From positions 1 through 64,000 of the forward strand of contig JANNVX010000109.1 in NCBI GenBank assembly GCA_031414595.1: a stretch of 64,000 bases of DNA, given 5' to 3'. The translations under genes were made by a program, and so were the position numbers. Below the pieces are notes generated by a model that was given only the letters and a program-made list of their open reading frames with translations, ran no database searches and was not told the DNA's origin. This DNA comes from Deinococcales bacterium (GTDB taxonomy: Bacteria; Deinococcota; Deinococci; Deinococcales; JAAFIG01). Shown in pieces: positions 25,600-43,919 of the stretch; position 1 is the stretch's first letter, and every line of letters begins with the position of its first letter.

Positions 25600-28467
25600 G
25601 TGCTTCGGCTTTTAGGAACTGCCACTTATGACCACAAGCCCGTCACGCTTGAACGGTCTTTGTATCTGGTGGCTTTGTTGGTCTGTCAAAATTCTTGGAT
25701 GTCTCGAGAAGAGATGATTTTGCTTTTATGGGCAGAAGATGATTCGGGTAATATGGTCAAACAACGCCTTCGTCAGTTGCTTTACCGCGCTAAACAAATG
25801 CCTTATGCTGCCGAACTTGAAGTCAGTAGTACCCATTTACGCTTTAATGCCACCACCGATGTGCAATTATTCAGAAACGCGATTCAACAGCGCCATTGGT
25901 CAGAAGCGATTGCCTTATACCAAGGTGAATTCCTGCGTCATGCGGTTGTAGACTTGTCCGAACTTGACGAATGGTTTGCTTTAGAACGAGCCACCTTAAG
26001 TGCTGATTTTCGCTTGGCGGTCTTAGAACAGGCTTCTAAACTGCCCGCCCAAGAAGCGGCTTTATTGCTGGAGCAAGCCATGACCCATGACCCGCTCAAT
26101 GAGGAGTTGCTAAAAACACTGCTTGGTTACGCCAGCCAAGACCCCGAAATTGGACTTCGCGCCTATACACAATATGCCTTAGAATTGGCGCAAACTTTAC
26201 AACTTGAACCTTCTAAAGAAGTACGTGTCTTGGTGAGAGCCTTACCTGAAAAAAGCACACAAGTAACACCCAAACCACAATTTAAGTTACCAACCCCGAG
26301 CAGTGCCTTTGTGGGTCGTCAAGCCGAACTTGACCAAATCATGCAACGTTTAAGCGACCCCCGTTGTCGAATCCTGAGCTTGGTTGGGGTCGGGGGAATC
26401 GGTAAAACTCGGCTGGCGCTCGAGGTTGCCACTCGTATGCAAGCCGATGGAAGCACTCGTATGCAAGCCGATGGAAGCACTGGTATCTCTGAAGATGTGG
26501 TGTTTGTGGACCTTGCTCGGCTGAGCAACCATGAATTTGTCCCCCATGCAATCCTTGAAGCGATTGGCGAACGCCCTACCGAAAACCCACTTGAACACCT
26601 TAAAGAAGTCTTGGCTAGTAAAAAACTGCTTTTGATTTTGGATAACTTTGAACATCTGATGCAAGCCAGAGAAGTCGTGACTGGTTTACTTCAGCACACC
26701 ACCATGACCAGATTTATCGTCACTTCTCGAGAAAGCCTAGGACTTTTGCAGGAACAAGTCATAGAACTCCGAGGTTTACCTGCCCCAGATACTGTTTTTC
26801 CACTCGAGACTCAAGATGCGGCTCGGTTGTTTTTACGGGCTGCCCAACACAGTCAACTTGATTTTACTTTTGCCCAAGACTTTAAGGCTTTTGAGCGAAT
26901 TTATAAAGCGGTCGAAGGCACGCCGCTCGGTTTAGAATTGGCTGCCAGTTGGGTCAGAACCCTCAGCCTAAGCCAAATTGCCAGCGAACTCGAACGTAGC
27001 CTCGATATGCTGAGTCTCGACGCGCCAGATATGCCTAGCCGTCACCGCAGTTTTGCGGCTGTCTTTGCTTCAAGCTGGACACTACTCAATAAAGCCGAAC
27101 AAGCAGTCCTCACTAAACTTTCAGTTTTTCAAGGCGGATTTGATAAGGATATGGCAATCCAAGTGGCTGGCACAAATCTGACTTTGCTGCTGCGCTTGGT
27201 CAATAAATCTTTAATCTCGAGACGTGATCAACGCTTTGTGATGCACGAAATGATCCGCCAGTACAGCCAAGAAAATCATCTGCCTGAAAGCCAATATCAA
27301 ACCCTTCAAGCCCTGTGTAAAGTCGCCCTAGATTTAAGCGGCAAATGGTATGCCCACCGCAATGGCGAACAGATTGGCGAATGGAGTAAACGTCTCGAGC
27401 AAGACCATGACAACATCCGTACTGCTTTAGCTTGGGCGCTGCAACACGATACCTTGACTGGGACAACTATTTGTGGGCAATTAGAACACTTTTGGTATAT
27501 CCGAGGTCATCACCGCGAAGGGCTGAACTGGGCAAGGCAGTTTGAACCGCTTTACCAAGACCTAGACCAAAAGCGTGTGCTTTTACTATGGACAATCATT
27601 AGTCTGTCTAAAGAACTTGGCGAATACGATTTGGCAAAGGCAACCCTAGAAACCTACCGCCAACTGGCAATTACACTTCAGGATAAGCGATTGATTGCCA
27701 ATTACGAAAAATTAGTTGGATTTATAGCCCATGAACAAGGTCATTTGGATTTAGCCAAAATACATTTGGAAAATTCTTTGCAAATTCATATTGAATTTAA
27801 CAACCAGTATTCTATTGCCACCTGCCACAACAGTTTAGGGGTCATTGCTGCCAAACAAGGACTTTACGCAGCAGCCAAACATCACGCCGAGGAAGCCTTG
27901 CGCTTAAAACGCATCATCGGAGATAAACATGGTGTTGCTTATGCCATTGAAAATCTTGGGATAATTGCTGGTCAACAAGGCGATTATGCTTTAGAAAAAG
28001 TCATGATGGAAGAAGCCTTGCGCTTAAACCGTGAACTTGGCGATCAACAAGGGATCGCCAAAAGTATTTATGCGCTTGGAAAAAATGCACTCGAGCAGAA
28101 TCAAATTCAAAATGCAATCCAGTTTTGCCTTGAAGCCTTTGACATATGTTGTCGTTTGGAACGCCGTTATTTAATGATTCAACTGATTCATACCTTTGCC
28201 CAGATTGCCAGTCGGCTCGGGCAACCGCTAACAGCTTGGCGCTTTATTACCCTAAGCATTCACCTTTCAAACCAATTGCACAGTCTGCCACCACAATCAT
28301 GGTTTACTGAACAGCGTGACTGGCAAAAAGAAAGTAACTTAACGGCGACACAACTGGCAAAACTCGAGTTTGAACTAGAAAAACAACCACAGTTTGAGCG
28401 AATCCAAGAGATTTTTTTGTGGTTATCACAATCCCAAGTTTTGGTTCAAACACTGGTAAACAGCTAA
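25600..28467 (+). CDS. SARP/BTAD regulator with NB-ARC-like ATPase and TPR repeats
   Basis: FVGRQAEL, GVGGIGKTRLA, LILDNFEHL, TSRESL, GTPLGLELAA, C-terminal TPRs. Confidence 0.88.
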   Translation: MLRLLGTATYDHKPVTLERSLYLVALLVCQNSWMSREEMILLLWAEDDSGNMVKQRLRQLLYRAKQMPYAAELEVSSTHLRFNATTDVQLFRNAIQQRHWSEAIALYQGEFLRHAVVDLSELDEWFALERATLSADFRLAVLEQASKLPAQEAALLLEQAMTHDPLNEELLKTLLGYASQDPEIGLRAYTQYALELAQTLQLEPSKEVRVLVRALPEKSTQVTPKPQFKLPTPSSAFVGRQAELDQIMQRLSDPRCRILSLVGVGGIGKTRLALEVATRMQADGSTRMQADGSTGISEDVVFVDLARLSNHEFVPHAILEAIGERPTENPLEHLKEVLASKKLLLILDNFEHLMQAREVVTGLLQHTTMTRFIVTSRESLGLLQEQVIELRGLPAPDTVFPLETQDAARLFLRAAQHSQLDFTFAQDFKAFERIYKAVEGTPLGLELAASWVRTLSLSQIASELERSLDMLSLDAPDMPSRHRSFAAVFASSWTLLNKAEQAVLTKLSVFQGGFDKDMAIQVAGTNLTLLLRLVNKSLISRRDQRFVMHEMIRQYSQENHLPESQYQTLQALCKVALDLSGKWYAHRNGEQIGEWSKRLEQDHDNIRTALAWALQHDTLTGTTICGQLEHFWYIRGHHREGLNWARQFEPLYQDLDQKRVLLLWTIISLSKELGEYDLAKATLETYRQLAITLQDKRLIANYEKLVGFIAHEQGHLDLAKIHLENSLQIHIEFNNQYSIATCHNSLGVIAAKQGLYAAAKHHAEEALRLKRIIGDKHGVAYAIENLGIIAGQQGDYALEKVMMEEALRLNRELGDQQGIAKSIYALGKNALEQNQIQNAIQFCLEAFDICCRLERRYLMIQLIHTFAQIASRLGQPLTAWRFITLSIHLSNQLHSLPPQSWFTEQRDWQKESNLTATQLAKLEFELEKQPQFERIQEIFLWLSQSQVLVQTLVNS
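26431..26478 (+). repeat. In-frame 24-nt tandem duplication
   Basis: actcgtatgcaagccgatggaagc x2 (TRMQADGS x2). Confidence 0.9.
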
Positions 28468-31970: not shown

Positions 31971-32363
31971 GTGGATTACACAACAGAGGTGACAGGTGCG
32001 TTGTACATTGGTCTGTTTGCGTTGATTGGGGCGGGAATTGTTTATATCACGCTCGAGATTGCAAAGTTGGCGTTTTTTTATGCAGGGTCGCGGCGATTCG
32101 GCGGCAATAAAGCTAAGGATTCGGTTTACGAATGTGGTATGGAAACCATTGGCGATACCAATGTGCAATTCAATTTGAATTACTACTTGTTTGCCATGCT
32201 TTTTGTGATTTTTGATGTCGAAGCTGCACTGCTCTATCCGTGGGCTGTGGCATTCGATACTCTTGGGGTCGGTGGTTTACTTGCCGTGCTGTCTTTCTTG
32301 GTGATTTTGTTCCTTGGGTTTTTATACGCACTTCGTAAAGGAGCATTAAAATGGGTTTACTAG
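31971..32363 (+). CDS. nuoA: NADH-quinone oxidoreductase subunit A
   Basis: [30 protein letters not shown]. Confidence 0.95.
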
Positions 32364-32902
32364 GCACGCAAGCTCGTCCGGATAACGTTATTCTTGGTTC
32401 GCTTGATGATTTAATTAACCTCTCTCGTTCGAGAAGTTTATGGCCCTTAACTTTTGGTATTGCTTGCTGTGCCATCGAAATGATGAACTCGAGCGCCACC
32501 CGTTACGACATGGATCGTTTTGGCGTTTTTTACCGCAATACGCCGCGTCAAGCCGATGTGATGATTGTCTCGGGGACGGTTAATAAAAAAATGGGTAAGG
32601 TCGTGCGTCAACTTTGGGAGCAAATGTCCGAGCCTAAATGGGTCATCAGCATGGGCGCATGTGCCAACCAAGGTGGACCATTTCGCCAAGGCTATAGCGT
32701 GGTTGAAGGGGTAGACAAAATTATCCCCGTAGATATTTATGTTCCCGGTTGCCCGCCGCGTCCCGAAGCCCTGATGCAAGCCCTGCTTTTGCTGCGAGAC
32801 AAAATCGCTGACCCTGCGGCGCGTTATGTGCCGGGGACAATGATGGATGCTGATTTTGACCCACTCGCTGAACCCGGTCATGATGGACGGGTGTTGTTGT
32901 GA
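32351..32902 (+). CDS. nuoB: NADH-quinone oxidoreductase subunit B
   Basis: [30 protein letters not shown]. Confidence 0.97.
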
Positions 32903-33873
32903 GCCAACCCTCATCCGCTCCAATTGCTCCAGCTAAAATCTGGCATATCCCACTGCTCGAGTCCGACAAGATAGAAAATCTGATAGCTGGCTTAAAAGCT
33001 CGAGCCGAAACACTGTTTGACACGATTCAAATTACTGTTGCTCTCGAGGATTACCGCACCCTATGTGAACGCCTCTTCAAAGCTGGTTTTGATTTTCCGC
33101 AAAGCATGAGCGGTACAGATTTTGAATGGGGTTTAGGGGTTGCGTTGCAACTGCAACAACTCGAGTCCAAACGCAAAGTCACGGTGCGGACGTACTGCAC
33201 CTATCAAAATGCCCATGTCCCAACTGTTTCTGACCTTTGGGGAGGCGTAGATTGGCACGAACGCGAAGCCTATGACCTTGTGGGCATTATTTTTGATGGT
33301 CATGAAGACTCGATAAATGGTCATCCACGCCGAATTCTGCTCGAGGATCATTGGACGATTCACCCACTGCAAAAGCGCTATAACACCCGTGGCTACTTAA
33401 TCCATGGCTGGACAGAAAAACCATTCCCAACTCCAGCCCCGTGGGAAGAAGGTTTCCAATCCTTCTCTAGCGCTCCTGTGGCTGTTGCTCACGTTGCCCC
33501 ACCCGCGCCGAAAATTGTTCCTGTCGTTGCCGTAGGGGCGAGGCTTCTTGACCCTAAAGCAGCACCTGACGGGCTTGGGTCGCACGCCTCGCCCGACCCC
33601 GCCGAAGCCCCCGCTCCTAAAGCCGAAGCTGCCCCAGTCGTCTCGAGTGACCCACCAAAGAAAGTCGCTAAAAAATGGGTTCCAAAAGGCGAAGCCGCGC
33701 CAATTGTTACCGAAGCCGCCCCTGAAGCTGCCTCGAGTGAACCCGTGCCTGTTGTCTCGAGTGAACCTGCGCCCGTCGTTTCGAGTCCAGAAGTTGTTGC
33801 CGTCTCGAGTCCAGAAGCCGCCCCAGAAGAAAAACCCCGCAATCCTAAAATTAAGCGTTGGGAACCCAGATAA
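32899..33873 (+). CDS. nuoC: NADH-quinone oxidoreductase subunit C with long Pro/Ala/Glu-rich tail
   Basis: [26 protein letters not shown]...RRILL...HPL. Confidence 0.93.
33532..33594 (+). repeat. REP inside nuoC, interrupted by a 39-nt small hairpin element (33545-33583)
   Basis: gtaggggcgaggc[ttcttgaccctaaagcagcacctgacgggcttgggtcgc]acgcctcgccc. Confidence 0.85.
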
Positions 33874-33885
33874 AGGAGGGATGAT

Positions 33886-35067
33886 ATGACCGCAGTCGCA
33901 GATAAACCGAATAATGCTCGTAATACGTCCGGTTCTGTCATGAACCCGACGACAGTTGAACGGGTCGCGGGTCGCTCGGACGAGATGCTTCTCAACCTTG
34001 GACCACAACACCCAGCCACCCACGGTGTACTTCGAGTTCTTATGGGTGTGGATGGCGAACGTGTCACCAAGGCAATTCCACACATTGGGTACTTGCATCG
34101 CAACCATGAAAAACTCGAGGAAGTGCGTACTTATCCGATGTGTATTCCCTATACCGACCGCATGGATTACGTGTCGGGAATGCAGAACGAATTGCCATTG
34201 TGTTTGGCGGTAGAGGAGATGCTAGGTATCGAAGTCCCAGAACGCGCCAAATATGTGCGAACGATTTTATTTGAACTAAGCCGTATTGCGAGTCACATGG
34301 TCTGGATTGGCACATACATGCTCGACCTTGGGGCAATTACTCCGTTTTTATATGCGTTTCGTGACCGCGAAATGATTCTCGACATCATCGAAGAAACGGC
34401 TGGGGCGCGGTTATTACCAAATTATTTCACCTATGGCGGTGTGCGCCGTGACCATCATCCGCGCATGATGCAGGACATTCTCGAGTTCCTGACGTGGTTT
34501 GAGCGTAAGCTCCCAGAGTACGAAGCCCTGACCATTGATGCACCAGTCTTCCAAGCCCGTACCGTTGGTGTTGGTGTGCTAGACCCGCAATTGGCGCTCA
34601 ATCATGGTGTGACCGGACCAAACCTGCGTGGTAGCGGTATCGGCTGGGATTTACGCCGCGACGACCCATATGATGCCTACCCACATTTGGATTTCGAGGT
34701 CTGTGTGGAGTACGGCTGCGATGCCTACTCAAGAAGCCGCGCTCGTTTTCGTGAATTCCGCGAGAGCATTAAAATTATTCGTCAAGCTGTTAATCAGTGT
34801 CCAAAAGGCGGCGCGTACTTACCAAAACTGCCGCGTCTTAAACCCGTGGCTGGTATGGAACGTTACCGCGCTGTGGAAATCTCGAGGGGACATCTTGGGG
34901 TGCATATTGTGGCCGACGGTTCAGAAAAACCGTGGCGTGTTAAGCACCGCAGCCCGAGTTTCTGCACCTTGCAAGCCTTAGCGGACATGGCTGTGGGTTC
35001 TAAATTCTCGGATGCAATCGCTATTCTTGGCAGCATTGACATTGTTCTAGGGGAGATTGACCGATGA
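33886..35067 (+). CDS. nuoD: NADH-quinone oxidoreductase subunit D
   Basis: NLGPQHPATHGVLR, GYLHR, DRMDY, GSIDIVLGEIDR. Confidence 0.97.
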   Translation: MTAVADKPNNARNTSGSVMNPTTVERVAGRSDEMLLNLGPQHPATHGVLRVLMGVDGERVTKAIPHIGYLHRNHEKLEEVRTYPMCIPYTDRMDYVSGMQNELPLCLAVEEMLGIEVPERAKYVRTILFELSRIASHMVWIGTYMLDLGAITPFLYAFRDREMILDIIEETAGARLLPNYFTYGGVRRDHHPRMMQDILEFLTWFERKLPEYEALTIDAPVFQARTVGVGVLDPQLALNHGVTGPNLRGSGIGWDLRRDDPYDAYPHLDFEVCVEYGCDAYSRSRARFREFRESIKIIRQAVNQCPKGGAYLPKLPRLKPVAGMERYRAVEISRGHLGVHIVADGSEKPWRVKHRSPSFCTLQALADMAVGSKFSDAIAILGSIDIVLGEIDR

Positions 35068-36689
35068 GTATTTATGAAAACAAAGAAGCTCGGTTGCCGC
35101 TCGAGCGTGTCTCTGTGCCTACCGATAAGCATTACAGAATGCGAATGAAGCATCACGGGTTACTGAACGCCAATCCGCGTAAATCGGGTTTGTTGGCGGC
35201 GATTATTGGTTATGCGCTCTTGTTTGGCGCTGCCCACGGTGTGTTAATTCTGGCATTTCAAGTCATTCCAGCACTTTTGACCAACGGCTTACCGTTCCCA
35301 TGGACTGGTTTTGGTCTCGAGAAGAACAGTTTTTGGTTTAACGTCATTTACGGGCTGCTTGCCCCAGTCTTGGCGTTTTTATTTATCGCTGTGGTGGCAT
35401 TGATTAACATCCTCATGCTGCGTAAGTACCTCGCTAAAGTTCAGAACCGTTATGGACCTCTGCACAACGGACCCTCGGGCAGTTTACAAACGGTTTACGA
35501 CGCGCTCAAACTGGTTTCTAAAGAAGATTACACCCCCAAAATGGTTGAGGAAACAATTTTCACCCTTGCCCCAGTCCTCGTTTTTGTTTCTGCCTTTTTA
35601 CTGATGGCAGTGATACCATTTGCCCCCGGTTGGGTCTTTGCCAATGTCGAAGCTGGCGCAATTTTTATTATTGCGGCGGGTACGCTCGGCGGGTACGGTG
35701 TGCTGCTGGCGGGTTGGAGCATGAACAACAAGTACGGTTTGATGGGTGGCTTACGAGCCGCAGCGCAGCTTGTCAGTTACGAAGTGCCGCTTTCGATTAG
35801 CTTGCTTTCGGTCTGTGTCTACGCGGGCAGCATGAACCTTAGTAAAATTGTCGAAGCCCAACAAAGCCTGTGGTTTGCGATTCCGCTCTTTATTCCTTTC
35901 GTAATTTATTTAATCGCAGGTCTTGCCGAACTTAAAATGACTCCGTTTGACCTCCCAGAAGCCGAATCTGAACTTGTGGCTGGTTTTAACACCGAGTACG
36001 GCGGAATGCGTTTCGGATTTTTCTTTGTGGCAGAATTTGCCGAACTTTACCTTCTTCCAGCGTTGATGGCGGTGTTCTTTTTAGGTGGTTGGAATGCTCC
36101 TTCTATTCCAGCACCAACAGGGACTTTTCTTAACACTTGGTCTGGAGGTGCGCCTACCCTAGAACTTGTACTAAAGGCAAATCCAATGGCGGGTGACTTA
36201 AATGCTGATTATATTGTCAATCAAGAAGATTTGACTGCTTTCTCGGCAGCAGAGGTAGATGGCAAAAAGTTACCCAAGTGGCGATTGGATATTACTCGAG
36301 ATGGTTCAGTTGATTCCAAAGATAGTGAATTTATTTCACGCGAAATTGCCACCAATCCCAAGCCAACCTTATGGCAGCTACTATTTGGACCCGGAAGTTT
36401 AATTCTCAATAGTATTTATGCTCTGATTTTTCTAGTTAAAGGCGCAGCAGGAGTCTATTTCTACATGTGGATTCGTGCCACACTGCCCCGTTTCCGTGAT
36501 GACCAGTTAATGGAACTCTGCTGGAAGGGTTTAATCCCACTTTCTTTAGTTGGATTGTTGCTGGCAGCCGTCTCGAGACTGATTCCAGCCGTTGGGATTA
36601 CTATTTCGATATTGGTGGGCGGAACATTCATTGTGATGATTGCACGCGGGGCATTCTTCCCCACCTCGAGTAAGCAGGTGAAAGCATGA
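35064..36689 (+). CDS. nuoH: NADH-quinone oxidoreductase subunit H with N-terminal extension and internal dockerin-like insert
   Basis: QNRYGP, DALKLVSKE, GGLRAAAQLVSYE, PFDLPEAESELVAGFNTEY, WIRATLPRFRDDQLM. Confidence 0.95.
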   Translation: MSIYENKEARLPLERVSVPTDKHYRMRMKHHGLLNANPRKSGLLAAIIGYALLFGAAHGVLILAFQVIPALLTNGLPFPWTGFGLEKNSFWFNVIYGLLAPVLAFLFIAVVALINILMLRKYLAKVQNRYGPLHNGPSGSLQTVYDALKLVSKEDYTPKMVEETIFTLAPVLVFVSAFLLMAVIPFAPGWVFANVEAGAIFIIAAGTLGGYGVLLAGWSMNNKYGLMGGLRAAAQLVSYEVPLSISLLSVCVYAGSMNLSKIVEAQQSLWFAIPLFIPFVIYLIAGLAELKMTPFDLPEAESELVAGFNTEYGGMRFGFFFVAEFAELYLLPALMAVFFLGGWNAPSIPAPTGTFLNTWSGGAPTLELVLKANPMAGDLNADYIVNQEDLTAFSAAEVDGKKLPKWRLDITRDGSVDSKDSEFISREIATNPKPTLWQLLFGPGSLILNSIYALIFLVKGAAGVYFYMWIRATLPRFRDDQLMELCWKGLIPLSLVGLLLAAVSRLIPAVGITISILVGGTFIVMIARGAFFPTSSKQVKA

Positions 36690-37741
36690 GTCTCTTAAAA
36701 GATATTTGGAATGCGGTATCTGGTGTTGGTAAGGGCATGGAAAAGGTCTACGATGAACAATTCGATCCGATTTTCACCGAAATGTACCCATTTGACATGC
36801 CAAAACTGCCGCCAACCAGTGTCCAGAGTTTGGCACTGATTAAAAACGAGGATGGCTCAGACAGGTGCGTGTCTTGCTTAGCCTGTGAAAAAGTCTGCCC
36901 AAGCCAAGTGATTACCATTGAGCGCAAGAAAAACCCTGCTGGTAAAGGCTTTGTTCTCGAGCGTTTCGACATTGATTTGGTCAACTGCATGTACTGCGCG
37001 GCTTGTGTCGAATCCTGCCCAGCCTCGGCAATTGTCACGATTCAAGACTTTGAATTGTCTACCCCGAATCTGCAAACCCTAAAAGCCGATAAGGACTTCC
37101 TCGATTTCCAAGGCATTCGCGCTCAGCAGTGGTACAGCCCGAAAATTGGGGTCGAGTACCGCGAAAATGTCACCTCGAGTAATGTCCACGGAGCAATTGT
37201 TAAAGCCCCATTGATTGACCAACCCGGCGGCGCTGCTGAATATGAAAAATTAAAAGCGGCTGGCACAGAAATCCCTGTCAATAATGCCCGTCGTCCGGCT
37301 AACGCCATGTCTGAGCTTTCCATTCTCGAGTACAAACAATTAAAGCATGAGCCAATCAGTGCCACAGCCGCCAAACTCGAGTCAAAACCAGTTTCAGTCA
37401 ATATCCCTGTCAACATCCCCGCCCCAGTCCTCGAGACTGTGGCTGTGTTATCTGCATCTGTCGCCTCATCTGCCCCAAAATCCAAGAAAATCAAACGTTG
37501 GGGAGAACCTGCTTCCGAAGAATCCACCCTACCCGCCGTTGCCCCCGAACCCGTAGGGGCGAGGCATGCCTCGCCCGACCCCGCCGAAGCCCCCCTGCCG
37601 AAAGCCGAAGCTGTTGCCGTTGCCCCAGTCTCGAGTCCAGAACCAGCCGTCTCGAGTGCCGAAGTCCCAGTCTCGAGTGCCGAACCAGCCGAAGAAAAAC
37701 CAAAAAATCCCAAAATTAAGCGTTGGGAGCCTAAATCATGA
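36686..37741 (+). CDS. nuoI: NADH-quinone oxidoreductase subunit I with long C-terminal tail
   Basis: Two 4Fe-4S motifs CVSCLACEKVCP and CMYCAACVESCP; position between nuoH and nuoJ. Confidence 0.93.
   Translation: MSLLKDIWNAVSGVGKGMEKVYDEQFDPIFTEMYPFDMPKLPPTSVQSLALIKNEDGSDRCVSCLACEKVCPSQVITIERKKNPAGKGFVLERFDIDLVNCMYCAACVESCPASAIVTIQDFELSTPNLQTLKADKDFLDFQGIRAQQWYSPKIGVEYRENVTSSNVHGAIVKAPLIDQPGGAAEYEKLKAAGTEIPVNNARRPANAMSELSILEYKQLKHEPISATAAKLESKPVSVNIPVNIPAPVLETVAVLSASVASSAPKSKKIKRWGEPASEESTLPAVAPEPVGARHASPDPAEAPLPKAEAVAVAPVSSPEPAVSSAEVPVSSAEPAEEKPKNPKIKRWEPKS
37553..37576 (+). repeat. Intact REP inside nuoI (translated as VGARHASP)
   Basis: gtaggggcgaggcatgcctcgccc. Confidence 0.85.
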
Positions 37742-38358
37742 CCGAAGTCAATACTGTTTTCTTTTATTTGGTTGCCCTTGGCATTTTATCCACGGCAATC
37801 TACGCGGTGGCGAGTCCTAAGCTACTAAACGCGGCTGTTTCCCTTGCCTTGTCATTTTTTGCCGTTGGTGGTTTGTATTTCATGCTCGGGAACGGTTTCT
37901 TGGGCATGTTGCAAATTTTAATTAACGCTGGTGCAATTCCAATCGTCACGGTTTTTATTATCATGATGACCCAATCGCGGCGTATCCGCTTGCGTTCTAA
38001 TTTGAATGTCGCCGCAGCCCTTCTAGCAATTGTGGTCTTGGCAGGTAGCCTCTGGTCATTTTGGAATAGATACCAAGGTTCGGCAGCCACCCAAGGTAAG
38101 CAGATAACGTCAACGCCAACTTCTGAACTGGGTGTGAAGTTGCTCAGTGCCGATGGTACATTACTCGCCTTTGAACTTGCTTCGGTGCTGCTGCTTCTAG
38201 CCATGGTTGGTGCAATTGTCCTGACCAAGCGTGACGGCGAAACGATTAAAGGTGATGTCGGTGTGTTGTCCGATGTCGCTTTACCTGTGACGGGTGGAGA
38301 GCTTTCTCGTCCAGCCGCAACCATCGAACGAGCCTCAAAACAGGAGGTGGTTTCGTGA
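37738..38358 (+). CDS. nuoJ: NADH-quinone oxidoreductase subunit J
   Basis: LQILINAGAI, AFELASVLLLLAMVGAIVL. Confidence 0.92.
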   Translation: MTEVNTVFFYLVALGILSTAIYAVASPKLLNAAVSLALSFFAVGGLYFMLGNGFLGMLQILINAGAIPIVTVFIIMMTQSRRIRLRSNLNVAAALLAIVVLAGSLWSFWNRYQGSAATQGKQITSTPTSELGVKLLSADGTLLAFELASVLLLLAMVGAIVLTKRDGETIKGDVGVLSDVALPVTGGELSRPAATIERASKQEVVS

Positions 38359-38711
38359 ATCTCGAGTCAATTCTTGCCCCAATTCGTTCCTTTGCTAATT
38401 CTGGTATTTCAGTCAATCACTTTATTGCCCTTGCGATGCTGCTGTTCTTGGTTGGTTTATATGGTGTTTTAACCCGTCGCAATATCGTGGCAATTTTAAT
38501 GAGTGTTGAAATTATGCTCAACGCCGCCATGCTGGTGTTTGTAGCGGCGGCTGCTTACAGCGGTGATGCCACCAAAACGGGTCCACTATTTGCGCTTTTT
38601 ATCGTTGCCATTGCTGCCGCCGAGGTTGCTGTGGGTCTCGCCATTTTTATCAATGTCTTTAGAAGTAAGGGTGGCGTAACCACCGAAGACTTGATGGAAA
38701 TGAAGAATTAA
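38355..38711 (+). CDS. nuoK: NADH-quinone oxidoreductase subunit K
   Basis: RRNIVAILMSVEIMLNA, IAAAEVAVGLA. Confidence 0.95.
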   Translation: MNLESILAPIRSFANSGISVNHFIALAMLLFLVGLYGVLTRRNIVAILMSVEIMLNAAMLVFVAAAAYSGDATKTGPLFALFIVAIAAAEVAVGLAIFINVFRSKGGVTTEDLMEMKN

Positions 38712-38722
38712 AGGAGGGGAAA

Positions 38723-40924
38723 ATGTTTATTGATTACGCTTTGTTGATTCCCCTGCTTCCCGCGTTCGGCTGGCTGATCATTTCCTTGTTCAGCAAATCG
38801 CTGGGCGGCAAGGGTAGTGCGTGGTTGGCAACAACCATGATTGGCTTGAGTGCAGTGATTGCCATTGGTCTGTTCGCCGATTCGTTCTCGAGTGCGCCAG
38901 TCTGGAAAGCCGATACGCTGGGTAAAATTTATAAACTCGAGAAGGAAATTAAGGTTCTCGAGAAGGCAGAAAAAGCTGGGAAGCCAGAAACCGCCACAAT
39001 TGAACCGGGTTCTGAAGTCCCTAAAACTGAGGGCGAACACACCGCCAGCCCTGAGCTTTTAGCACTCGAGGAGAAGTTAAGTGAGTACAAAACCGAAGCC
39101 CTCGAGTCTCGAGCCGTTGGCGGTTTTCCGTTTACCAGAGACTGGACTTGGTTAGCCATTAAAGGCGAAGCAGGTTTACCATTTGGTTTATATGTAGACC
39201 AGTTAGCTGCAATTATGCTTTTAATGGTGACAATTGTTTGTTTTTTAATTCATTTGTTCAGCATTGGCTACATGGCGCACGAAGAACGCTATCCGACCTT
39301 TTTTAGTTATATCAATTTGTTTGCCGCCGCCATGCTTGCGATGGTGCTGGCGAAGAACTTATTCCATGTCTTGTTGTTCTGGGAAATCATGGGCTTAATG
39401 TCGTACCTTTTGATTGGCTTTTTCTATAAGAAGAAAAGCGCTCAACAAGCTCAGAAGAAGGCTTTTTTAACCGTGCGTATCGGCGACTTGGCGTTTATGG
39501 CTGGGTTGTTCTGGTTGTACAGTGTCTTTGGGACACTGGATATTCCAACCCTTCTTGCCACATCTCACAGCGACCTCGAGACCAAACTTGGTGGGGCAGC
39601 TTTTGGCATTGGCTTACTGCTCTTTATTGCTGCGGTTGGTAAATCGGCTCAGTTCCCGCTTCATGTCTGGTTGCCAGATGCAATGGAAGGTCCTACACCA
39701 GTAAGCGCCATGATTCACGCCGCGACAATGGTGGCGGCGGGTGTGTACTTGGTGGCTCGAGTTTACCCAATTATGGATGTTGGTGGAGTCCTACCAATTA
39801 TTGCATGGCTTGGGGGCTTTACGGCGCTGTTTGCAGCCAGTCTTGCGCCAGCCCAAGCCGATGCCAAGAAGATTATGGCGTTTAGTACGCTTTCACAATT
39901 GGGCTTGATGTTCATGGGCTTAGGTCTGTTCGGGTACGCAGCAGCGCTGTTTCACTTGCTGACTCACGCGTTTTTCAAAGCCCTCTTGTTCCTTGGTTCG
40001 GGTAGCATGATTCATGGTGCAGGTACGCAAGACATCTTTGAAATGGATAATTTATCCAAGTACCAAAAATACACTTGGGCGACGGTTCTGATTGGTTCAC
40101 TTAGCTTAATGGGTTTCCCACTCACGGCTGGTTTCTGGTCTAAAGACGAAATTCTGCATGTGGCTCAGAGTGCAAACCCAGCCCTGTACATCGTTGGTTG
40201 TGCAGTGGCGATTTTGACCGCGTTTTACACTACACGGATGTTTATTATTGCCTTCCACAAGCCCAAACAAGTTTCCCCGTGGGGCTTAGCCGCTTGGAAC
40301 AACGAGGGCGAACCAAGCCTAAACATGACCCAAGCCGAAGTTGAAGAACAAAAAAAGCACGAACATGGTCATGGTCATAGCGATCATCCGCACGAATCTG
40401 GTTCTGAAATGCTCATCCCATTGGTTAGCCTTGCAACCCTTGCGACGGTCATGGGTTTTGTTGGCAGTCCATTCGCTAATTTCTGGCTGCAACGCTTTGT
40501 CTATCACGGTGATGTGCCGCATGTCGCGCCGCTCGAGTCACTTTGGGCTGGGTTTATCATCAGTGCGATTTTGGTGGTGATTGGCGCAGGAGCATCTTAT
40601 GCCCTGTACTGGAATTCTGATGTGACCAAGGCTCGAGCGCCCGAATGGTTGACTCGAGTGTTGCAACGCCGTTATTACATTGATGATTACTTCTACGCGG
40701 GTCCTGCTAAAATTTCTAACGATATTCAATGGCTGTTTGCTTGGTTTGATAAGAATGTCGTGGACAAAATCGTTGACTTCGTTGGTGGGCTGGTGGTGGT
40801 GCTTGGCGATGCCTCGAGACGGATTCAAACAGGGGCTTTAGGTTGGTACGCAGGTCTGACTGTAATTGGTGGCTTGGCACTGATTCTTGCCTTTGCTGTT
40901 GCCTTTGCTGGAGGTGGCAAATGA
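38723..40924 (+). CDS. nuoL: NADH-quinone oxidoreductase subunit L
   Basis: WEIMGLMSYLLIGF, GKSAQFPLHVWLPDAMEGPTPVSAMIHAATMV, HAFFKALLFL. Confidence 0.97.
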   Translation: MFIDYALLIPLLPAFGWLIISLFSKSLGGKGSAWLATTMIGLSAVIAIGLFADSFSSAPVWKADTLGKIYKLEKEIKVLEKAEKAGKPETATIEPGSEVPKTEGEHTASPELLALEEKLSEYKTEALESRAVGGFPFTRDWTWLAIKGEAGLPFGLYVDQLAAIMLLMVTIVCFLIHLFSIGYMAHEERYPTFFSYINLFAAAMLAMVLAKNLFHVLLFWEIMGLMSYLLIGFFYKKKSAQQAQKKAFLTVRIGDLAFMAGLFWLYSVFGTLDIPTLLATSHSDLETKLGGAAFGIGLLLFIAAVGKSAQFPLHVWLPDAMEGPTPVSAMIHAATMVAAGVYLVARVYPIMDVGGVLPIIAWLGGFTALFAASLAPAQADAKKIMAFSTLSQLGLMFMGLGLFGYAAALFHLLTHAFFKALLFLGSGSMIHGAGTQDIFEMDNLSKYQKYTWATVLIGSLSLMGFPLTAGFWSKDEILHVAQSANPALYIVGCAVAILTAFYTTRMFIIAFHKPKQVSPWGLAAWNNEGEPSLNMTQAEVEEQKKHEHGHGHSDHPHESGSEMLIPLVSLATLATVMGFVGSPFANFWLQRFVYHGDVPHVAPLESLWAGFIISAILVVIGAGASYALYWNSDVTKARAPEWLTRVLQRRYYIDDYFYAGPAKISNDIQWLFAWFDKNVVDKIVDFVGGLVVVLGDASRRIQTGALGWYAGLTVIGGLALILAFAVAFAGGGK

Positions 40925-42456
40925 TTACGGCTTTAATTCTGATTCCGATTCTGGCGGCGATTCTGGCGGCGGTCTCGAGTACCGCCATTGCAAAACGTGT
41001 GGCAGTGGCTGCAAGTTTAATCACCACAATTGTCAGTGCGATCATGTACTTTTCGTATAACACAAGCGGCGGACAATTGGCGTTTGTTGAAAAAGTGCCT
41101 TGGATTCCTCAAGCTGGGATTGGCTACTTTGTTGGTTTAGACGGACTTTCCTTGCCATTTGTGTTTTTAACCGCACTGCTGACCTTGGTTTCGGTGCTGG
41201 CTTCTTGGGACGAAGAAAAAAAGAGTTTCTATGCGCTTTTTCTGGTCATGCAAGCTGGTGTGACAGGTGTTTTTGCCTCGCTTGACTTAATACTGTACTT
41301 CTTGTTCTGGGAAGTGGTCTTAATCCCGATGTTCTTTATTATTCTGGTTTGGGGTTACGAGAATCGCCGTTATGCGGGTATTAAATTTGTGATTTATAGC
41401 CTGACTGGTTCGGTGTTGATGCTGATTTCAATGCTGGCATTAGCCTTTGGTGTAGCCAGTGCCACAGGTAAACCACTTTCCTTTGACTATGAAGTGCTGC
41501 TTGCGAACCTCGAGACGATTAAATCCCTGCCGGGGATTGCCCTGATTTTCTGGGGCTTTATGATTGCCTTTTTGATTAAACTTCCCGCTTTTCCATTCCA
41601 TACATGGTTGCCTCATGCCCACACTGAAGCCCCAACGGGCGGTTCGATTATGCTGGCGGGAGTGCTACTCAAAATGGGTGGGTACGGCATTTTGCGTTTT
41701 AACCTTGGTTTAATGCCAGAGCAAATGCAGCAATTCCAGACGATTTTGGCAATTCTAGCCACGATTGGCGTAATTTACGGGGCGTATTGTGCAATGGCAC
41801 AAAAAGACTTAAAGCGGATGGTCGCGTACTCGAGTGTCAATCACATGGGTTATGTGCTGCTTGGGATTGTGAGCATGACCGCTATGGGCATTCACGGTGC
41901 GGTTTACCAGATGGTGGCGCACGGGATTATCACTGGCTTAATGTTTATGATGGTTGGCTTTTTAAGTCACCGCACCCACACAAGGGAAATCGCCAAGATG
42001 ACGGGTATGTACAATGCCATGCCAGTCTTGGGTGCAATTATGTGGATGGCATTTTTAGGCGGGCTTGGCTTACCGGGCATGGCTGGGTTTATTGGCGAGT
42101 ACACAGCGTTGTCTGGGGCGATTCAAAATCCTGCCACGGCAATTTATGGGTACATCAGTTTAATCGGCATTATTGTCACGGCTGGATTTATTCTCTATGC
42201 CGTGCAGCGTGTGTTGCTTGGGCGTAACCCTGCGGCAACCGACGACCATCACGGTCACGATGTACCCTCGAGCCACGGCGAACAAAAAGGGCATCACGAC
42301 CTCTCACCGCTTGAGATTGCGGCGGCTGCGCCTTTGGTGATTCTTGGGGTGGTACTTGGTTTGTACCCTGCGCTGCTCACGCCTTGGATTGATGGCAGCA
42401 CACAATTACTGCTCGAGACCGCCAAACGAGTCATGGCACTGGGAGGTGGACAATGA
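40921..42456 (+). CDS. nuoM: NADH-quinone oxidoreductase subunit M
   Basis: GLDGLS, FWEVVLIPM, FPFHTWLPHAHTEAPT, AYSSVNHMG; ATG overlaps the nuoL stop. Confidence 0.96.
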   Translation: MITALILIPILAAILAAVSSTAIAKRVAVAASLITTIVSAIMYFSYNTSGGQLAFVEKVPWIPQAGIGYFVGLDGLSLPFVFLTALLTLVSVLASWDEEKKSFYALFLVMQAGVTGVFASLDLILYFLFWEVVLIPMFFIILVWGYENRRYAGIKFVIYSLTGSVLMLISMLALAFGVASATGKPLSFDYEVLLANLETIKSLPGIALIFWGFMIAFLIKLPAFPFHTWLPHAHTEAPTGGSIMLAGVLLKMGGYGILRFNLGLMPEQMQQFQTILAILATIGVIYGAYCAMAQKDLKRMVAYSSVNHMGYVLLGIVSMTAMGIHGAVYQMVAHGIITGLMFMMVGFLSHRTHTREIAKMTGMYNAMPVLGAIMWMAFLGGLGLPGMAGFIGEYTALSGAIQNPATAIYGYISLIGIIVTAGFILYAVQRVLLGRNPAATDDHHGHDVPSSHGEQKGHHDLSPLEIAAAAPLVILGVVLGLYPALLTPWIDGSTQLLLETAKRVMALGGGQ

Positions 42457-43919
42457 TTTTTGTGGCATTGGTGTTCTTGATGATTTCGGCAATGGCAATG
42501 TTTATTGCAGCAACTTTTAAGGGCGCAGAGGAAAAACATGCGGGGCAGATTTTTGGTGGTATCAGCTTAGTGGTGTACGGCATCACGGCGTTGTTGGCAG
42601 CGATGGCTTGGAATGACACAACCGTACATTACGGGGTGATTAAGTCTGGTGGCTTGGCGACCCTTGGCACAATTATCATGTGCGGTATCGGGGCTTTAAC
42701 GGTCGGTGGTGTAATGGCTAACCCCGAAAAGTACAAGGCTGGTGTCGGTGAATTCTTTGGTTTTATTGCCTTTGTGGTTTTTGGTGGGGCAATTATGGTC
42801 AGCACCAATCATCTACTCGTGCTGCTGCTTGGTATTGAACTCTCGAGTTATGCGACTTATATTCTAGTGGGATATTACCGCGATGACCGCTTCAGCAATG
42901 AGGCTGCCAGCAAATACTTTTTATTAGGTGCAGTCGCCAGTGGCTTTCTGATTTTTGGCATGAGCCTTGTCTATGCCAGTGTGGTTTTTGTCAATGGCTC
43001 ACTCAGTTATGCTGACATTGGCAATACTTTGGCGGGTCTGGTCGGGCAGACGGTTGGTATTCCAGCCCTGATTTACCCCGGTATCGCCATGCTGCTGGTT
43101 GGCTTTGGCTTCAAACTCGCGCTTGCACCGTTTCACTCTTGGACTCCAGATGCCTACCAAGGCGCTCCGACGATGGTGGCGGCAATTCTTAGCGTTGGAC
43201 CTAAAGCGGCGGTTGTGATTGCGCTCTCGAGCTTACTGACCACAGCTTTTCCGGTGCCAGAACTCTCGAGTGCTTGGAAGAACGCCATTGCTGTCCTAGC
43301 GATTTTATCCATGACCATCGGCAACTTAATGGCATTACAACAAACCAACCTCAAGCGTCTGCTTGGCTTCTCGAGTATCGCCCAATTGGGTTATGTGGTG
43401 ATTGGTGTGGCAGTTGGCAGTTTAGACGGCACAAGTGCGGTTATTTTGTATATGGTTGGTTATGCTGTCACCAATATCGGTGCATTTATGATTATTGCTA
43501 CGCTGCGCGATTCTGGGGTCGGCGAAAACATCGAAGACATTGCGGGCTTGGTTAAACGCAATTCATTTGCTGCCGTGATGCTGGCTGGTTTCTTTATGGG
43601 TTTAGCTGGTGTACCTGTGCTGGCTGGTTTCCTCGGCAAGTTACTGCTTTTTAAGAGCGCTGTGGATGTTGGGATGGTGGCGCTTGCGGTGATTGCTGTC
43701 CTGAATGTTGTGCCAAGTTACTACTATTACTTTAGGGTGATTATCAGTGCAATTTTTAGTGAACCCAAAGACTCGAGAACCTTTGAACTGAATCCAACTG
43801 CCACGACGACGCTTGCGATAGCACTTGGGGCGGTGGTGTTGCTGGGCGTTTTTCCAACGCCATTACTAAACATCATCAACGAAGCCGTTAAAGTCCTACC
43901 ACTTTTTGCCGCTCGCTAA
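42453..43919 (+). CDS. nuoN: NADH-quinone oxidoreductase subunit N
   Basis: EAASKYFLLG, FKLALAPFHSWTPDAYQGAP, KRLLGFSSIAQLGY. Confidence 0.96.
   Translation: MIFVALVFLMISAMAMFIAATFKGAEEKHAGQIFGGISLVVYGITALLAAMAWNDTTVHYGVIKSGGLATLGTIIMCGIGALTVGGVMANPEKYKAGVGEFFGFIAFVVFGGAIMVSTNHLLVLLLGIELSSYATYILVGYYRDDRFSNEAASKYFLLGAVASGFLIFGMSLVYASVVFVNGSLSYADIGNTLAGLVGQTVGIPALIYPGIAMLLVGFGFKLALAPFHSWTPDAYQGAPTMVAAILSVGPKAAVVIALSSLLTTAFPVPELSSAWKNAIAVLAILSMTIGNLMALQQTNLKRLLGFSSIAQLGYVVIGVAVGSLDGTSAVILYMVGYAVTNIGAFMIIATLRDSGVGENIEDIAGLVKRNSFAAVMLAGFFMGLAGVPVLAGFLGKLLLFKSAVDVGMVALAVIAVLNVVPSYYYYFRVIISAIFSEPKDSRTFELNPTATTTLAIALGAVVLLGVFPTPLLNIINEAVKVLPLFAAR

What the first reader, a model, noticed from the sequence alone, without database searches (positions are those of the whole stretch)
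36192..36350. Dockerin-like double Ca2+-loop inserted in NuoH
Seen: after FLGGW, in a loop that is usually short, NuoH has about 100 extra residues including GDLNADYIVNQEDL and LDITRDGSVDSKDS, two DxN/TxDxxVxxxD repeats about 30 aa apart. Established: this is the pattern of dockerin/EF-hand-like duplicated Ca2+-binding loops. Inference: an outward-facing Ca2+-dependent docking module on complex I that may tether a partner or an envelope protein. I know of no described example.
Basis: partly seen in the sequence, partly recalled or inferred. Interest (0 to 1): 0.8.

Follow-up and report, generated by a model that had tools for sequence, protein, structure and literature searches.

The report
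Dockerin module inside complex I NuoH
A small calcium-binding "dockerin" module, normally found on secreted proteins that plug into scaffolds, sits inside an outward-facing loop of a core membrane subunit of a respiratory complex I variant in an uncultured freshwater bacterium, and appears to have arrived as a swapped-in gene segment.

Summary
NuoH (window 35064-36689, 541 aa) carries about 105 residues where E. coli NuoH has about 3. Residues 376-428 match Pfam Dockerin_1 over the whole profile: 23.3 bits for the insert alone, 19.4 in the whole protein, cut-off 22.9. A profile of four such loops hits 13 solved dockerins (E 1e-5 to 4e-3). In an AlphaFold model, residues 371-433 superpose on five solved dockerins (Z 6.8-7.2, rmsd 2.2-2.8 Å).

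The loop follows TMH6, so by complex I topology it faces the periplasm (inference). The host operon is a second, NuoEFG-less, 11-subunit nuo set with its Fe-S ligands intact.

The module is rare: 1 of 364 Deinococcota species genomes, plus three metagenomic loop types. Each carrier has a dockerin-less sister. In this genome codons 344-458 form a sharp mosaic block (third-position G+C, GC3, 0.28 against 0.52), so the block was probably imported by recombination. Three per-run assemblies reproduce it.

No Pfam cohesin is found in the genome. A cohesin-like lipoprotein elsewhere in the genome is only a weak lead. A docking function is plausible but not shown. I found no published description.

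The parts
31971..43919 (+). 11-gene nuo operon, nuoA-B-C-D-H-I-J-K-L-M-N, with no nuoE/F/G. It is the genome's second complex I gene set.
   Evidence: Pfam assignments. NuoF and a second NuoD and NuoH lie on contig C98. The NuoB cluster N2 cysteines and both NuoI CxxCxxCxxxCP motifs are present.
35064..36689 (+). nuoH, 541 aa. It has an extra N-terminal helix, 8 core transmembrane helices, a C-terminal extra helix and an enlarged TMH6-7 loop.
   Evidence: AlphaFold2 model: mean pLDDT 82.4, pTM 0.83. Best structural matches are ND1/NuoH chains.
36003..36077 (+). TMH6 (residues 314-338), ending in FLGGW. It runs from the cytoplasmic quinone-site loop (EAESELVAGF) to the periplasm.
   Evidence: Helix in the model. 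The membrane side is inferred from known complex I structures.
36093..36437 (+). Mosaic loop cassette, codons 344-458: left flank, dockerin, right flank.
   Evidence: Against the closest relatives the gene is about 92% identical in nucleotides outside the block and 61-64% inside. The boundaries are sharp, at codons ~344 and ~458. GC3 is 33/116 = 0.28 against 0.52 in the rest of nuoH, binomial p 3.4e-7. The loops of 12 of 12 relatives match the GC3 of their own genes.
36096..36188 (+). Pre-dockerin periplasmic element (residues 345-375; motif xLxxWxGGxxxLELxLKAN). The dockerin-less alleles of the closer relatives, including all 7 other genomes of the genus, share it in a diverged form; more distant family members have unrelated short loops.
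   Evidence: Alignments. Two short strands and a helix in the model.
36189..36353 (+). Dockerin module (residues 376-430).
   Evidence: Pfam Dockerin_1, residues 376-428. Profile hits to 13 solved dockerins. Model residues 371-433 superpose on 2vn5_B, 6kg9, 2ccl_B, 4dh2_D and 2ozn_B.
36195..36230 (+). Ca2+ loop 1, D378-L-N-A-D-Y-I-V-N-Q-E-D389.
   Evidence: Positions 1, 3, 5 and 12 are invariant in the 4 loop types. Position 6 is Tyr or Trp instead of the usual Gly. A helix (387-399) starts at loop position 10.
36288..36323 (+). Ca2+ loop 2, D409-I-T-R-D-G-S-V-D-S-K-D420.
   Evidence: Positions 1, 5, 6, 8 and 12 are invariant. Position 3 is Thr here and Asn in the other three loop types. A helix (418-430) starts at loop position 10.
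36399..36482 (+). TMH7 (residues 446-473), returning to the cytoplasmic RATLPRFRDDQ motif.
   Evidence: It aligns to E. coli NuoH residues 271-318.

Best explanation
SHOWN. A true dockerin-family module of about 55 aa, made of two F-hand Ca2+ loops each followed by a helix, is nested in the TMH6-TMH7 loop of NuoH. This NuoH belongs to a second, NuoEFG-less, 11-subunit complex I paralogue of an uncultured Deinococcota bacterium from freshwater sediment. In this genome the whole loop (codons 344-458) is a compositionally foreign block with sharp boundaries.

INFERRED. (1) The loop is periplasmic, so the module can fold around two Ca2+ ions outside the cytoplasm. A dockerin's two ends meet, which lets it sit in a loop. 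(2) The block came in by homologous recombination from a lower-GC nuoH allele that already carried the dockerin. (3) The most likely function is the family's usual one: a Ca2+-dependent protein-protein attachment point. It would tether the heel of the membrane arm to a periplasmic or envelope protein that is still unidentified. One weak candidate is a cohesin-like lipoprotein on contig C17.

I put the dockerin identity and the periplasmic placement at about 0.85. The docking function, which the confidence figure refers to, I put at about 0.4.
For: - Pfam Dockerin_1 covers the full profile and scores 23.3 bits for the insert alone.
- The relative P0001 scores 25.4 bits, over the cut-off, in the whole protein.
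- The four-loop profile hits 13 solved dockerins (E 9.8e-6 to 4.2e-3) out of 24 chains at E<=10.
- The same profile finds 557 library proteins. All 19 of the 19 I sampled are Dockerin_1 surface or secreted proteins.
- The AlphaFold2 model has pLDDT 68-85 across the insert, and a helix starts at position 10 of each loop.
- 5 of the 50 rows of the fold search are dockerins. Among the rows confined to a single small region of the model, these five are the only ones that fall on residues 371-433; the NuoH and antiporter-like rows span across the insert. They reach Z 6.8-7.2, rmsd 2.2-2.8 Å and 21-29% identity, with up to 56 of 56 residues aligned.
- 9 of the 11 invariant columns of the dockerin region lie in the two Ca2+ loops (Fisher p 0.0056), while the rest of the module is 42-67% identical.
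- Topology: the insert follows the single helix after the conserved cytoplasmic loop EAESELVAGF. The insert is net acidic (13 D+E against 9 K+R), and the N-terminus has 9 K+R.
- Dockerin termini touch each other (PMC3821032, passages read).
- Recombination.
- Assembly: the same 12,765-bp contig, with 0 differences, appears in three per-run assemblies.
- Candidate partner: the lipoprotein's residues 110-235 have cohesin clusters as their three nearest protein-atlas neighbours, scores 0.90, 0.89 and 0.89. Its gene lies in the same three-gene operon as the genome's only other dockerin gene.
Against: - No Pfam cohesin is found in this genome (94% complete) or in any of the 8 genomes of the genus at E<=10.
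- The lipoprotein family profile hits no solved cohesin. It shares 169 atlas features, just under the 170 the tool gives as typical of true family members.
- The module is dispensable. It is absent from the other 18 genomes of the family and from the sister sequences, which are 100% identical in the core.
- The residues on the two helices, which in dockerins contact the cohesin, differ among the four loop types.
- Repeat 1 has an aromatic residue where Gly is usual at position 6. Repeat 2 has Thr at position 3.
- In the whole protein the Pfam score (19.4 bits) is under the cut-off. P0012 has no Pfam hit at E<=0.01.
- The insert folded alone gave pLDDT 39.9, so the fold evidence rests on one model, and only 4 sequences fill the insert columns.
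- The tool notes that Z about 7 is a range where unrelated helical matches also occur.
Confidence: 0.4

Rival explanations
1. Passenger or structural cap. The module is a real dockerin-fold Ca2+-binding insert but has no partner. It sits in a loop that tolerates variation. It either just stiffens the periplasmic face of NuoH or is nearly neutral, and it spreads only because the loop region recombines among related lineages.
For: - The loop is the most variable part of the protein: 42-64 aa in the other members of the family.
- The module is absent from near-identical sisters, and the core tree needs 4 gains or losses.
- No cohesin is detected.
- The helix surfaces are not conserved.
- Dockerin-like modules occur widely without an obvious cohesin partner or known role (PMC9012536, section 32, passages read; it cites Peer et al. 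2009, which I could not read).
Against: The Ca2+-ligand columns stay invariant while the rest of the module drifts to 42% identity. The frame is intact in four diverged types found in independent contigs. A purely neutral 55-aa module in a core respiratory subunit would be expected to decay or be lost.
Confidence: 0.33
2. Ca2+ sensor. Ca2+ binding in the periplasmic module changes the conformation of TMH6 and TMH7 and so tunes the activity of this complex I paralogue according to external Ca2+.
For: The module is directly connected to TMH6, which follows the quinone-site loop. Dockerins fold on Ca2+ binding (PMC3821032, passages).
Against: Nothing in my calls points to regulation. The dockerin is flanked by about 30 and about 15 further loop residues, which would buffer any pull on the helices. 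Sisters without the module presumably work.
Confidence: 0.1
3. Chance or convergent Ca2+-loop resemblance. The segment is not homologous to dockerins but is a generic pair of DxDxDG-type loops, of the thrombospondin type 3, FG-GAP or EF-hand kind.
For: The whole-protein Pfam score is below the cut-off. The motifs are short and rich in Asp. Many library hits also match EF-hand or FG-GAP models weakly.
Against: The Pfam match covers profile positions 1-56 of 57, including both helices. No EF-hand, TSP_3 or FG-GAP model matched the insert at E<=10. All 13 best solved-structure hits are dockerins. The predicted fold superposes on whole dockerin chains.
Confidence: 0.07
4. Assembly chimera. The low-GC loop belongs to another co-occurring population and was joined into this contig by the assembler.
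For: The block has sharp boundaries in conserved sequence and a foreign GC3. The genome is a metagenome-assembled genome of 120 contigs.
Against: Three separately assembled runs each give one 12,765-bp contig that covers 35400-36900 with 0 differences, at an even depth of 24-41. These runs come from one study and may be the source samples, so they are not independent samples. The pair P0001/P0003 shows the same pattern in other data. Even if this contig were chimeric, the dockerin-NuoH gene itself would still exist.
Confidence: 0.03

Closest known systems
Type I dockerin modules of cellulosomal enzymes (Pfam PF00404; e.g. PDB 1OHZ/2CCL, 2VN5, 4FL4, 6KG9)
   Same: About 55-60 aa. Two 12-residue Ca2+ loops, each followed by a helix. 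Asp/Asn at the ligand positions. The predicted fold superposes on them at rmsd 2.2-2.8 Å. The location is outside the cytoplasm.
   Different: Those modules sit at the end of soluble secreted enzymes and bind a cohesin on a scaffoldin. This one is nested inside a loop of a polytopic inner-membrane subunit. Its genome has no recognisable cohesin. It has an aromatic residue at position 6 of repeat 1. The Ser-Thr recognition pair of the C. thermocellum type (recalled, not taken from a call) is absent.
Non-cellulosomal dockerin-like modules of bacteria and archaea (Peer et al. 2009, known to me only through PMC9012536 section 32; ANME archaea in PMC9012536)
   Same: Dockerin modules in organisms that do not degrade cellulose, often without scaffoldins and with unknown partners. 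They are proposed to attach proteins in the cell envelope.
   Different: The carriers named in the passages I read are substrate-binding proteins, S-layer proteins and scaffoldin-like proteins. None is an integral subunit of a respiratory complex. I did not open S4 Data of that paper, which lists all its dockerin proteins.
NuoH / ND1 / Nqo8 of respiratory complex I (Pfam PF00146; PDB 7NYH_H, 4HEA_H, 7A23_H)
   Same: The core of 8 helices, the quinone-site loop and the RxxLPRxRxDQ motif are conserved. Z 32.2 to 7a23_H.
   Different: The TMH6-7 loop is about 105 aa here and about 3 aa in E. coli. There is an extra N-terminal helix. The protein belongs to an operon without NuoEFG.
Other enlarged NuoH proteins noted earlier in this scan (e1-3077517, e1-1892221)
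   Same: A lineage-specific insertion in NuoH of a reduced, NuoEFG-less complex I relative.
   Different: Those insertions are extra membrane helices in the TM1-2 loop of complexes that have lost their Fe-S sites. Here the insert is a soluble periplasmic dockerin, and the Fe-S ligands of NuoB and NuoI are intact.

Membership tests
Dockerin_1 (PF00404) | Match to the family HMM at or above the gathering score (22.9 bits) | tested here: met
   Borderline. The insert alone scores 23.3 bits (E 7.3e-5) and the genome scan gives 22.9 bits, but the whole protein scores only 19.4 bits. Relatives: P0001 25.4 bits, P0014 16.6 bits, P0012 no hit at E<=0.01.
Dockerin_1 (PF00404) | Two tandem F-hand repeats: a 12-residue Ca2+ loop with Asp/Asn at positions 1, 3, 5, 9 and 12, followed by a helix | tested here: met
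   Loops at 378-389 and 409-420. Positions 1, 3, 5, 12 (loop 1) and 1, 5, 6, 8, 12 (loop 2) are invariant in 4 loop types. Helices 387-399 and 418-430. Departures: Tyr/Trp at position 6 of loop 1, and Thr at position 3 of loop 2 in the window.
Dockerin_1 (PF00404) | Dockerin three-dimensional fold | tested here: met
   On a predicted model only. Residues 371-433 align to 2vn5_B (Z 7.2, rmsd 2.2 Å, 56 of 56 residues), 6kg9, 2ccl_B, 4dh2_D and 2ozn_B. The insert folded alone gave an unusable model (pLDDT 39.9).
Dockerin_1 (PF00404) | Binds two Ca2+ ions and folds on binding | not testable with these tools
   Needs CD, ITC or NMR on the isolated loop.
Dockerin_1 (PF00404) | Located outside the cytoplasm | tested here: met
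   By inference. The insert lies one helix after the cytoplasmic quinone-site loop, the charge counts fit, and it aligns to the loop between E. coli NuoH residues 267 and 271.
Cohesin-dockerin system | A cohesin (PF00963) partner encoded in the same genome | tested here: not met
   0 matches in G000 (94% complete) at E<=0.001. 0 of the 8 genomes of the genus match at E<=10.
Cohesin-dockerin system | Ca2+-dependent binding of the module to a partner | not testable with these tools
A bench test is needed.
Cohesin (for the C17 lipoprotein, L048 8588-9349, minus strand) | Sequence or profile match to cohesins | tested here: inconclusive
   Pfam finds only He_PIG at E<=10. The family profile A4 finds no solved cohesin. 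The three nearest protein-atlas clusters are cohesin, at 0.90, 0.89 and 0.89.
EF-hand (Pfam EF-hand_1, _5, _6, _7) | Match to an EF-hand HMM (helix-loop-helix pair) | tested here: not met
   No EF-hand family is listed for the protein or the insert at E<=10.
NuoH/ND1 (PF00146) | HMM match, conserved quinone-site loop and C-terminal RxxLPRxRxDQ motif | tested here: met
   347.5 bits. Invariant columns. Z 32.2 to 7a23_H.
11-subunit complex I (without the NADH-oxidising module) | nuoA, B, C, D, H, I, J, K, L, M, N present, nuoE, F, G absent from the operon, Fe-S ligands kept | tested here: met
   NuoF is found only on contig C98.

The most novel reading that the evidence does not exclude
A respiratory complex I variant carries its own plug. 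The dockerin in NuoH would tether the complex, in a Ca2+-dependent way, to a cohesin-like lipoprotein or another envelope or redox partner in the periplasm. This would be a cellulosome-style assembly principle applied to the respiratory chain. The plug would be a mobile cassette that related lineages pass between nuoH alleles by homologous recombination.
Probability: 0.2. Interest if true: 0.8.

Novelty: new variant of a known kind. Interest (0 to 1): 0.6.

Why it matters
Dockerins are known as terminal modules of secreted proteins. To my knowledge, one nested in a loop of a polytopic membrane protein, and moreover in a conserved core subunit of complex I, has not been described. Four full-text searches found nothing.

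If it docks a partner, that would be a new way for bacteria to place or organise a respiratory enzyme from the periplasmic side. The test is direct: isolated loop, Ca2+, pull-down.

Whatever the function, the locus is a clean natural example of domain insertion into an essential membrane enzyme that spreads as a recombination cassette. Matched with-dockerin and without-dockerin alleles already exist in near-identical backgrounds, which makes a ready-made natural experiment.

Tried and rejected
- **Insert folded alone** (4-sequence alignment A2): pLDDT 39.9, unusable.
- **Foldseek with the whole NuoH model:** the 50 rows shown were all complex I or NDH-1 chains, so it says nothing about the insert.
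- **Word-indexed search with the loop region:** only P0001.
- **The search for related loci with the loop alignment:** Genome contigs gave 169 pattern matches and none confirmed. Metagenome contigs gave two loci that match only 20 residues behind the dockerin; I did not follow them. I therefore could not get DNA for P0001, P0012 or P0014, and I have no dN/dS, GC3 or breakpoint analysis for them.
- **Phylum scan:** the 7 matches other than G000 are weak. Two are the NuoH loop flank of G003 and G004, and five are other proteins. I opened one of these, a lipoprotein with a dockerin-like N-terminus, a long unexamined remainder and no NuoH.
- **Representative search:** it returned no NuoH. This is probably because clustering at 50% identity merges dockerin-bearing and dockerin-less NuoH. 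Even at 90% identity the window's protein is clustered under a dockerin-less representative.
- **Complex prediction** (NuoH + 2 Ca + lipoprotein residues 108-238): never ran. The queue was full and the tool was then declared unavailable. It gives no evidence either way.
- **Lipoprotein profile against solved structures:** one chance-level hit, E 2.4.
- **Run X5** (another study): holds only 209 bp of the conserved core. It says nothing about the dockerin or about habitat.
- **Peer et al. 2009:** not held.
- **Earlier notes of this scan:** nothing at this place or for this sequence.
Full report
**The observation**

The ORF at 35064..36689 (+) encodes a 541-aa NuoH (Pfam NADHdh, E 8.4e-104). The flagged coordinates 36192-36350 are residues 377-429 and contain both quoted motifs. 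E. coli NuoH (7nyh_H) aligns query residue 350 to its residue 267 and query 456 to its residue 271. About 105 residues therefore stand where E. coli has about 3. From FLGGW to RATLPR the window has 138 aa. The Thermus-like relatives of the order have 47 aa, and the other members of the family have 65-87 aa.

**Is it a dockerin?**

- Pfam Dockerin_1 matches residues 376-428 over profile positions 1-56 of 57. The score is 19.4 bits in the whole protein, below the 22.9 cut-off, and 23.3 bits (E 7.3e-5) when the insert is scanned alone. No EF-hand, TSP_3 or FG-GAP model was listed at E<=10.
- Three metagenomic NuoH proteins (P0001, P0012, P0014) carry a homologous insert at the same place.
- A profile of the four loops (alignment A2) hits 24 solved chains at E<=10. 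The 13 best (E 9.8e-6 to 4.2e-3) are all dockerins or dockerin-bearing cellulosomal enzymes.
- The same profile hits 557 proteins at E<=0.001 among 1.84 billion representatives. I sampled 19 of the 150 listed. All 19 carry Dockerin_1 on secreted or surface proteins, and none carries NADHdh.
- An AlphaFold2 model of the whole protein (93-row alignment, mean pLDDT 82.4) gives pLDDT 68-85 across residues 370-440. Helices 387-399 and 418-430 each start at position 10 of a 12-residue loop.
- A fold search that does not rely on Foldseek placed five dockerins among its 50 rows: 2vn5_B (Z 7.2, rmsd 2.2 Å, 56 of 56 residues), 6kg9, 2ccl_B, 4dh2_D and 2ozn_B. Among the rows confined to a single small region of the model, these five are the only ones that fall on residues 371-433.

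Three caveats apply. Z about 7 is a range the tool calls middling. Only four sequences fill the insert columns. The insert folded alone failed (pLDDT 39.9).

**Conservation**

Of the 11 invariant columns in the dockerin region of the four loop types, 9 lie in the two Ca2+ loops (Fisher p 0.0056). The loop types are otherwise 42-67% identical. There are two departures from the canonical loop. Position 6 of repeat 1 is Tyr or Trp in all four types. Position 3 of repeat 2 is Thr in the window.

**Where it sits**

The insert follows TMH6, the single helix after the conserved loop EAESELVAGF. In solved complex I structures that loop lines the quinone cavity on the cytoplasmic side; this rests on my own knowledge of complex I structures, not on a call (the passages of PMC8357420 that I read do not give the side of this loop). 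The insert should therefore be periplasmic. Charge counts agree: the N-terminus has 9 K+R, and the insert has 13 D+E against 9 K+R. Dockerin termini contact each other (PMC3821032, passages read), which makes insertion into a loop geometrically easy.

**Context**

The gene lies in an operon nuoABCDHIJKLMN without nuoEFG, followed by sdhCDAB. The cluster N2 cysteines of NuoB and both 4Fe-4S motifs of NuoI are present. A canonical set with NuoF lies on contig C98. Source names given to homologues place the organism in the Deinococcota.

**Distribution**

Among 41 related genomes, and among all 19 species genomes of the family, only G000 has the insert. Among 364 Deinococcota genomes, only G000 gives a full-length match. 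In the protein database I found four loop types: the window's protein (P0314), P0001/P0300, P0012, and P0014/P0303/P0302.

On a tree built from the core columns (42 rows, loop and N-terminus removed), the dockerin label needs 4 changes. Each carrier has a dockerin-less sister.

**Mosaic structure**

- Against P0002 the window's protein is identical at 242 of 243 and 81 of 81 core positions. In the two loop flanks it matches only 17 of 35 and 9 of 26.
- Against P0001 the flanks match 29 of 35 and 24 of 28. P0001 and P0003 show the same contrast.
- At the DNA level, identity to the closest relatives (L004, L005) is about 92% outside the block and falls to 61-64% inside it. The boundaries are sharp, at codons about 344 and about 458.
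- GC3 of the block is 33/116 = 0.28, against 0.52 for the rest of nuoH (binomial p 3.4e-7). Both flanks and the dockerin are equally low.
- In 12 of 12 relatives the loop's GC3 matches that of its own gene.

Import of a whole loop cassette from a lower-GC nuoH allele is the simplest reading.

A chimeric assembly is unlikely. Three runs, each assembled on its own, give one 12,765-bp contig that covers 35400-36900 with no differences. These runs come from one study and may be the source samples.

**Partner**

G000 has only one other Dockerin_1 match. It is a 249-aa secreted protein on contig C17. G000 has no Pfam cohesin, and none of the 8 genomes of the genus has one even at E<=10.

The C17 dockerin gene lies in a three-gene operon. 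The other two genes encode a 161-aa secreted protein and a 253-aa lipoprotein made of a He_PIG domain, a beta-rich domain and a Pro/Thr-rich tail. The operon is syntenic in another genus. The beta-rich domain has cohesin clusters as its three nearest protein-atlas neighbours (0.90, 0.89, 0.89; 169 shared features). Neither Pfam nor a 28-row family profile searched against solved structures supports this. The complex prediction that would have tested this pair was never available.

**Reading**

That the insert is a periplasmic dockerin-family module is well supported; I put it at about 0.85. The family's usual role, Ca2+-dependent protein attachment, is the most likely function at about 0.4. 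A partner-less structural or near-neutral passenger is nearly as likely, at about 0.33. The reasons for the second reading are that the module is dispensable in sister lineages, its helix surfaces vary, and no cohesin is recognisable.

**Novelty**

Four full-text searches found no paper that links a dockerin to NuoH, complex I or another respiratory membrane subunit (listings only). PMC9012536 (passages read) describes non-cellulosomal dockerins on soluble and S-layer proteins. I did not open its S4 Data, which could list other carriers.

Noticed in passing
window 33400-33873 (NuoC tail) and 37262-37741 (NuoI tail): NuoC (324 aa) and NuoI (351 aa) both end in Pro/Ala/Glu/Val-rich extensions of about 150 aa. 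The two tails are alike (40% identity over 108 columns, E 7e-12). Both contain [10 protein letters not shown] and both end in NPKIKRWEP. NuoI has a further KKIKRW copy inside. So two peripheral-arm subunits of the same complex share a tail of unknown role.
   Followed up: partly
window 38723-40924 (NuoL, 733 aa): The Pfam N-terminal domain of NuoL starts only at residue 143. It is preceded by a charged, coil-like stretch (KIYKLEKEIKVLEKAEKAGKPE...), so NuoL also carries an insertion near its N-terminus.
   Followed up: no
window 35064-35360 (NuoH residues 1-99): NuoH has an N-terminal extension: a basic cytoplasmic head and one extra transmembrane helix (model helix 43-74). It is conserved across the family's copies of this paralogue.
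   Followed up: partly
G000 contig C17, L048 7360-9349 (minus strand): A three-gene operon, conserved in another genus of the family (L035). It encodes a lipoprotein (He_PIG domain, possibly cohesin-like beta domain, Pro/Thr tail), a 161-aa secreted protein, and a 249-aa secreted protein with the genome's only other dockerin. Some homologues of the lipoprotein carry a Pro/Thr-rich insert of about 100 aa in the middle of the beta domain.
   Followed up: partly
window 33397-34107 (-) and 37123-37713 (-): Long antisense ORFs (236 and 196 aa) of low-complexity sequence lie opposite the NuoC and NuoI tails. They are most likely a by-product of the repetitive composition and not genes. Short tandem repeats of 24 and 21 bp lie in the same places.
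   Followed up: no
window 25600-28467 (+): A 955-aa protein with BTAD, STAND-type NTPase (AAA_16/NB-ARC) and TPR domains lies upstream of the nuo operon.
   Followed up: no
window 35778-35986: A run from a different study holds a 209-bp contig identical to this conserved core part of nuoH. It is too short to say anything about distribution.
   Followed up: no
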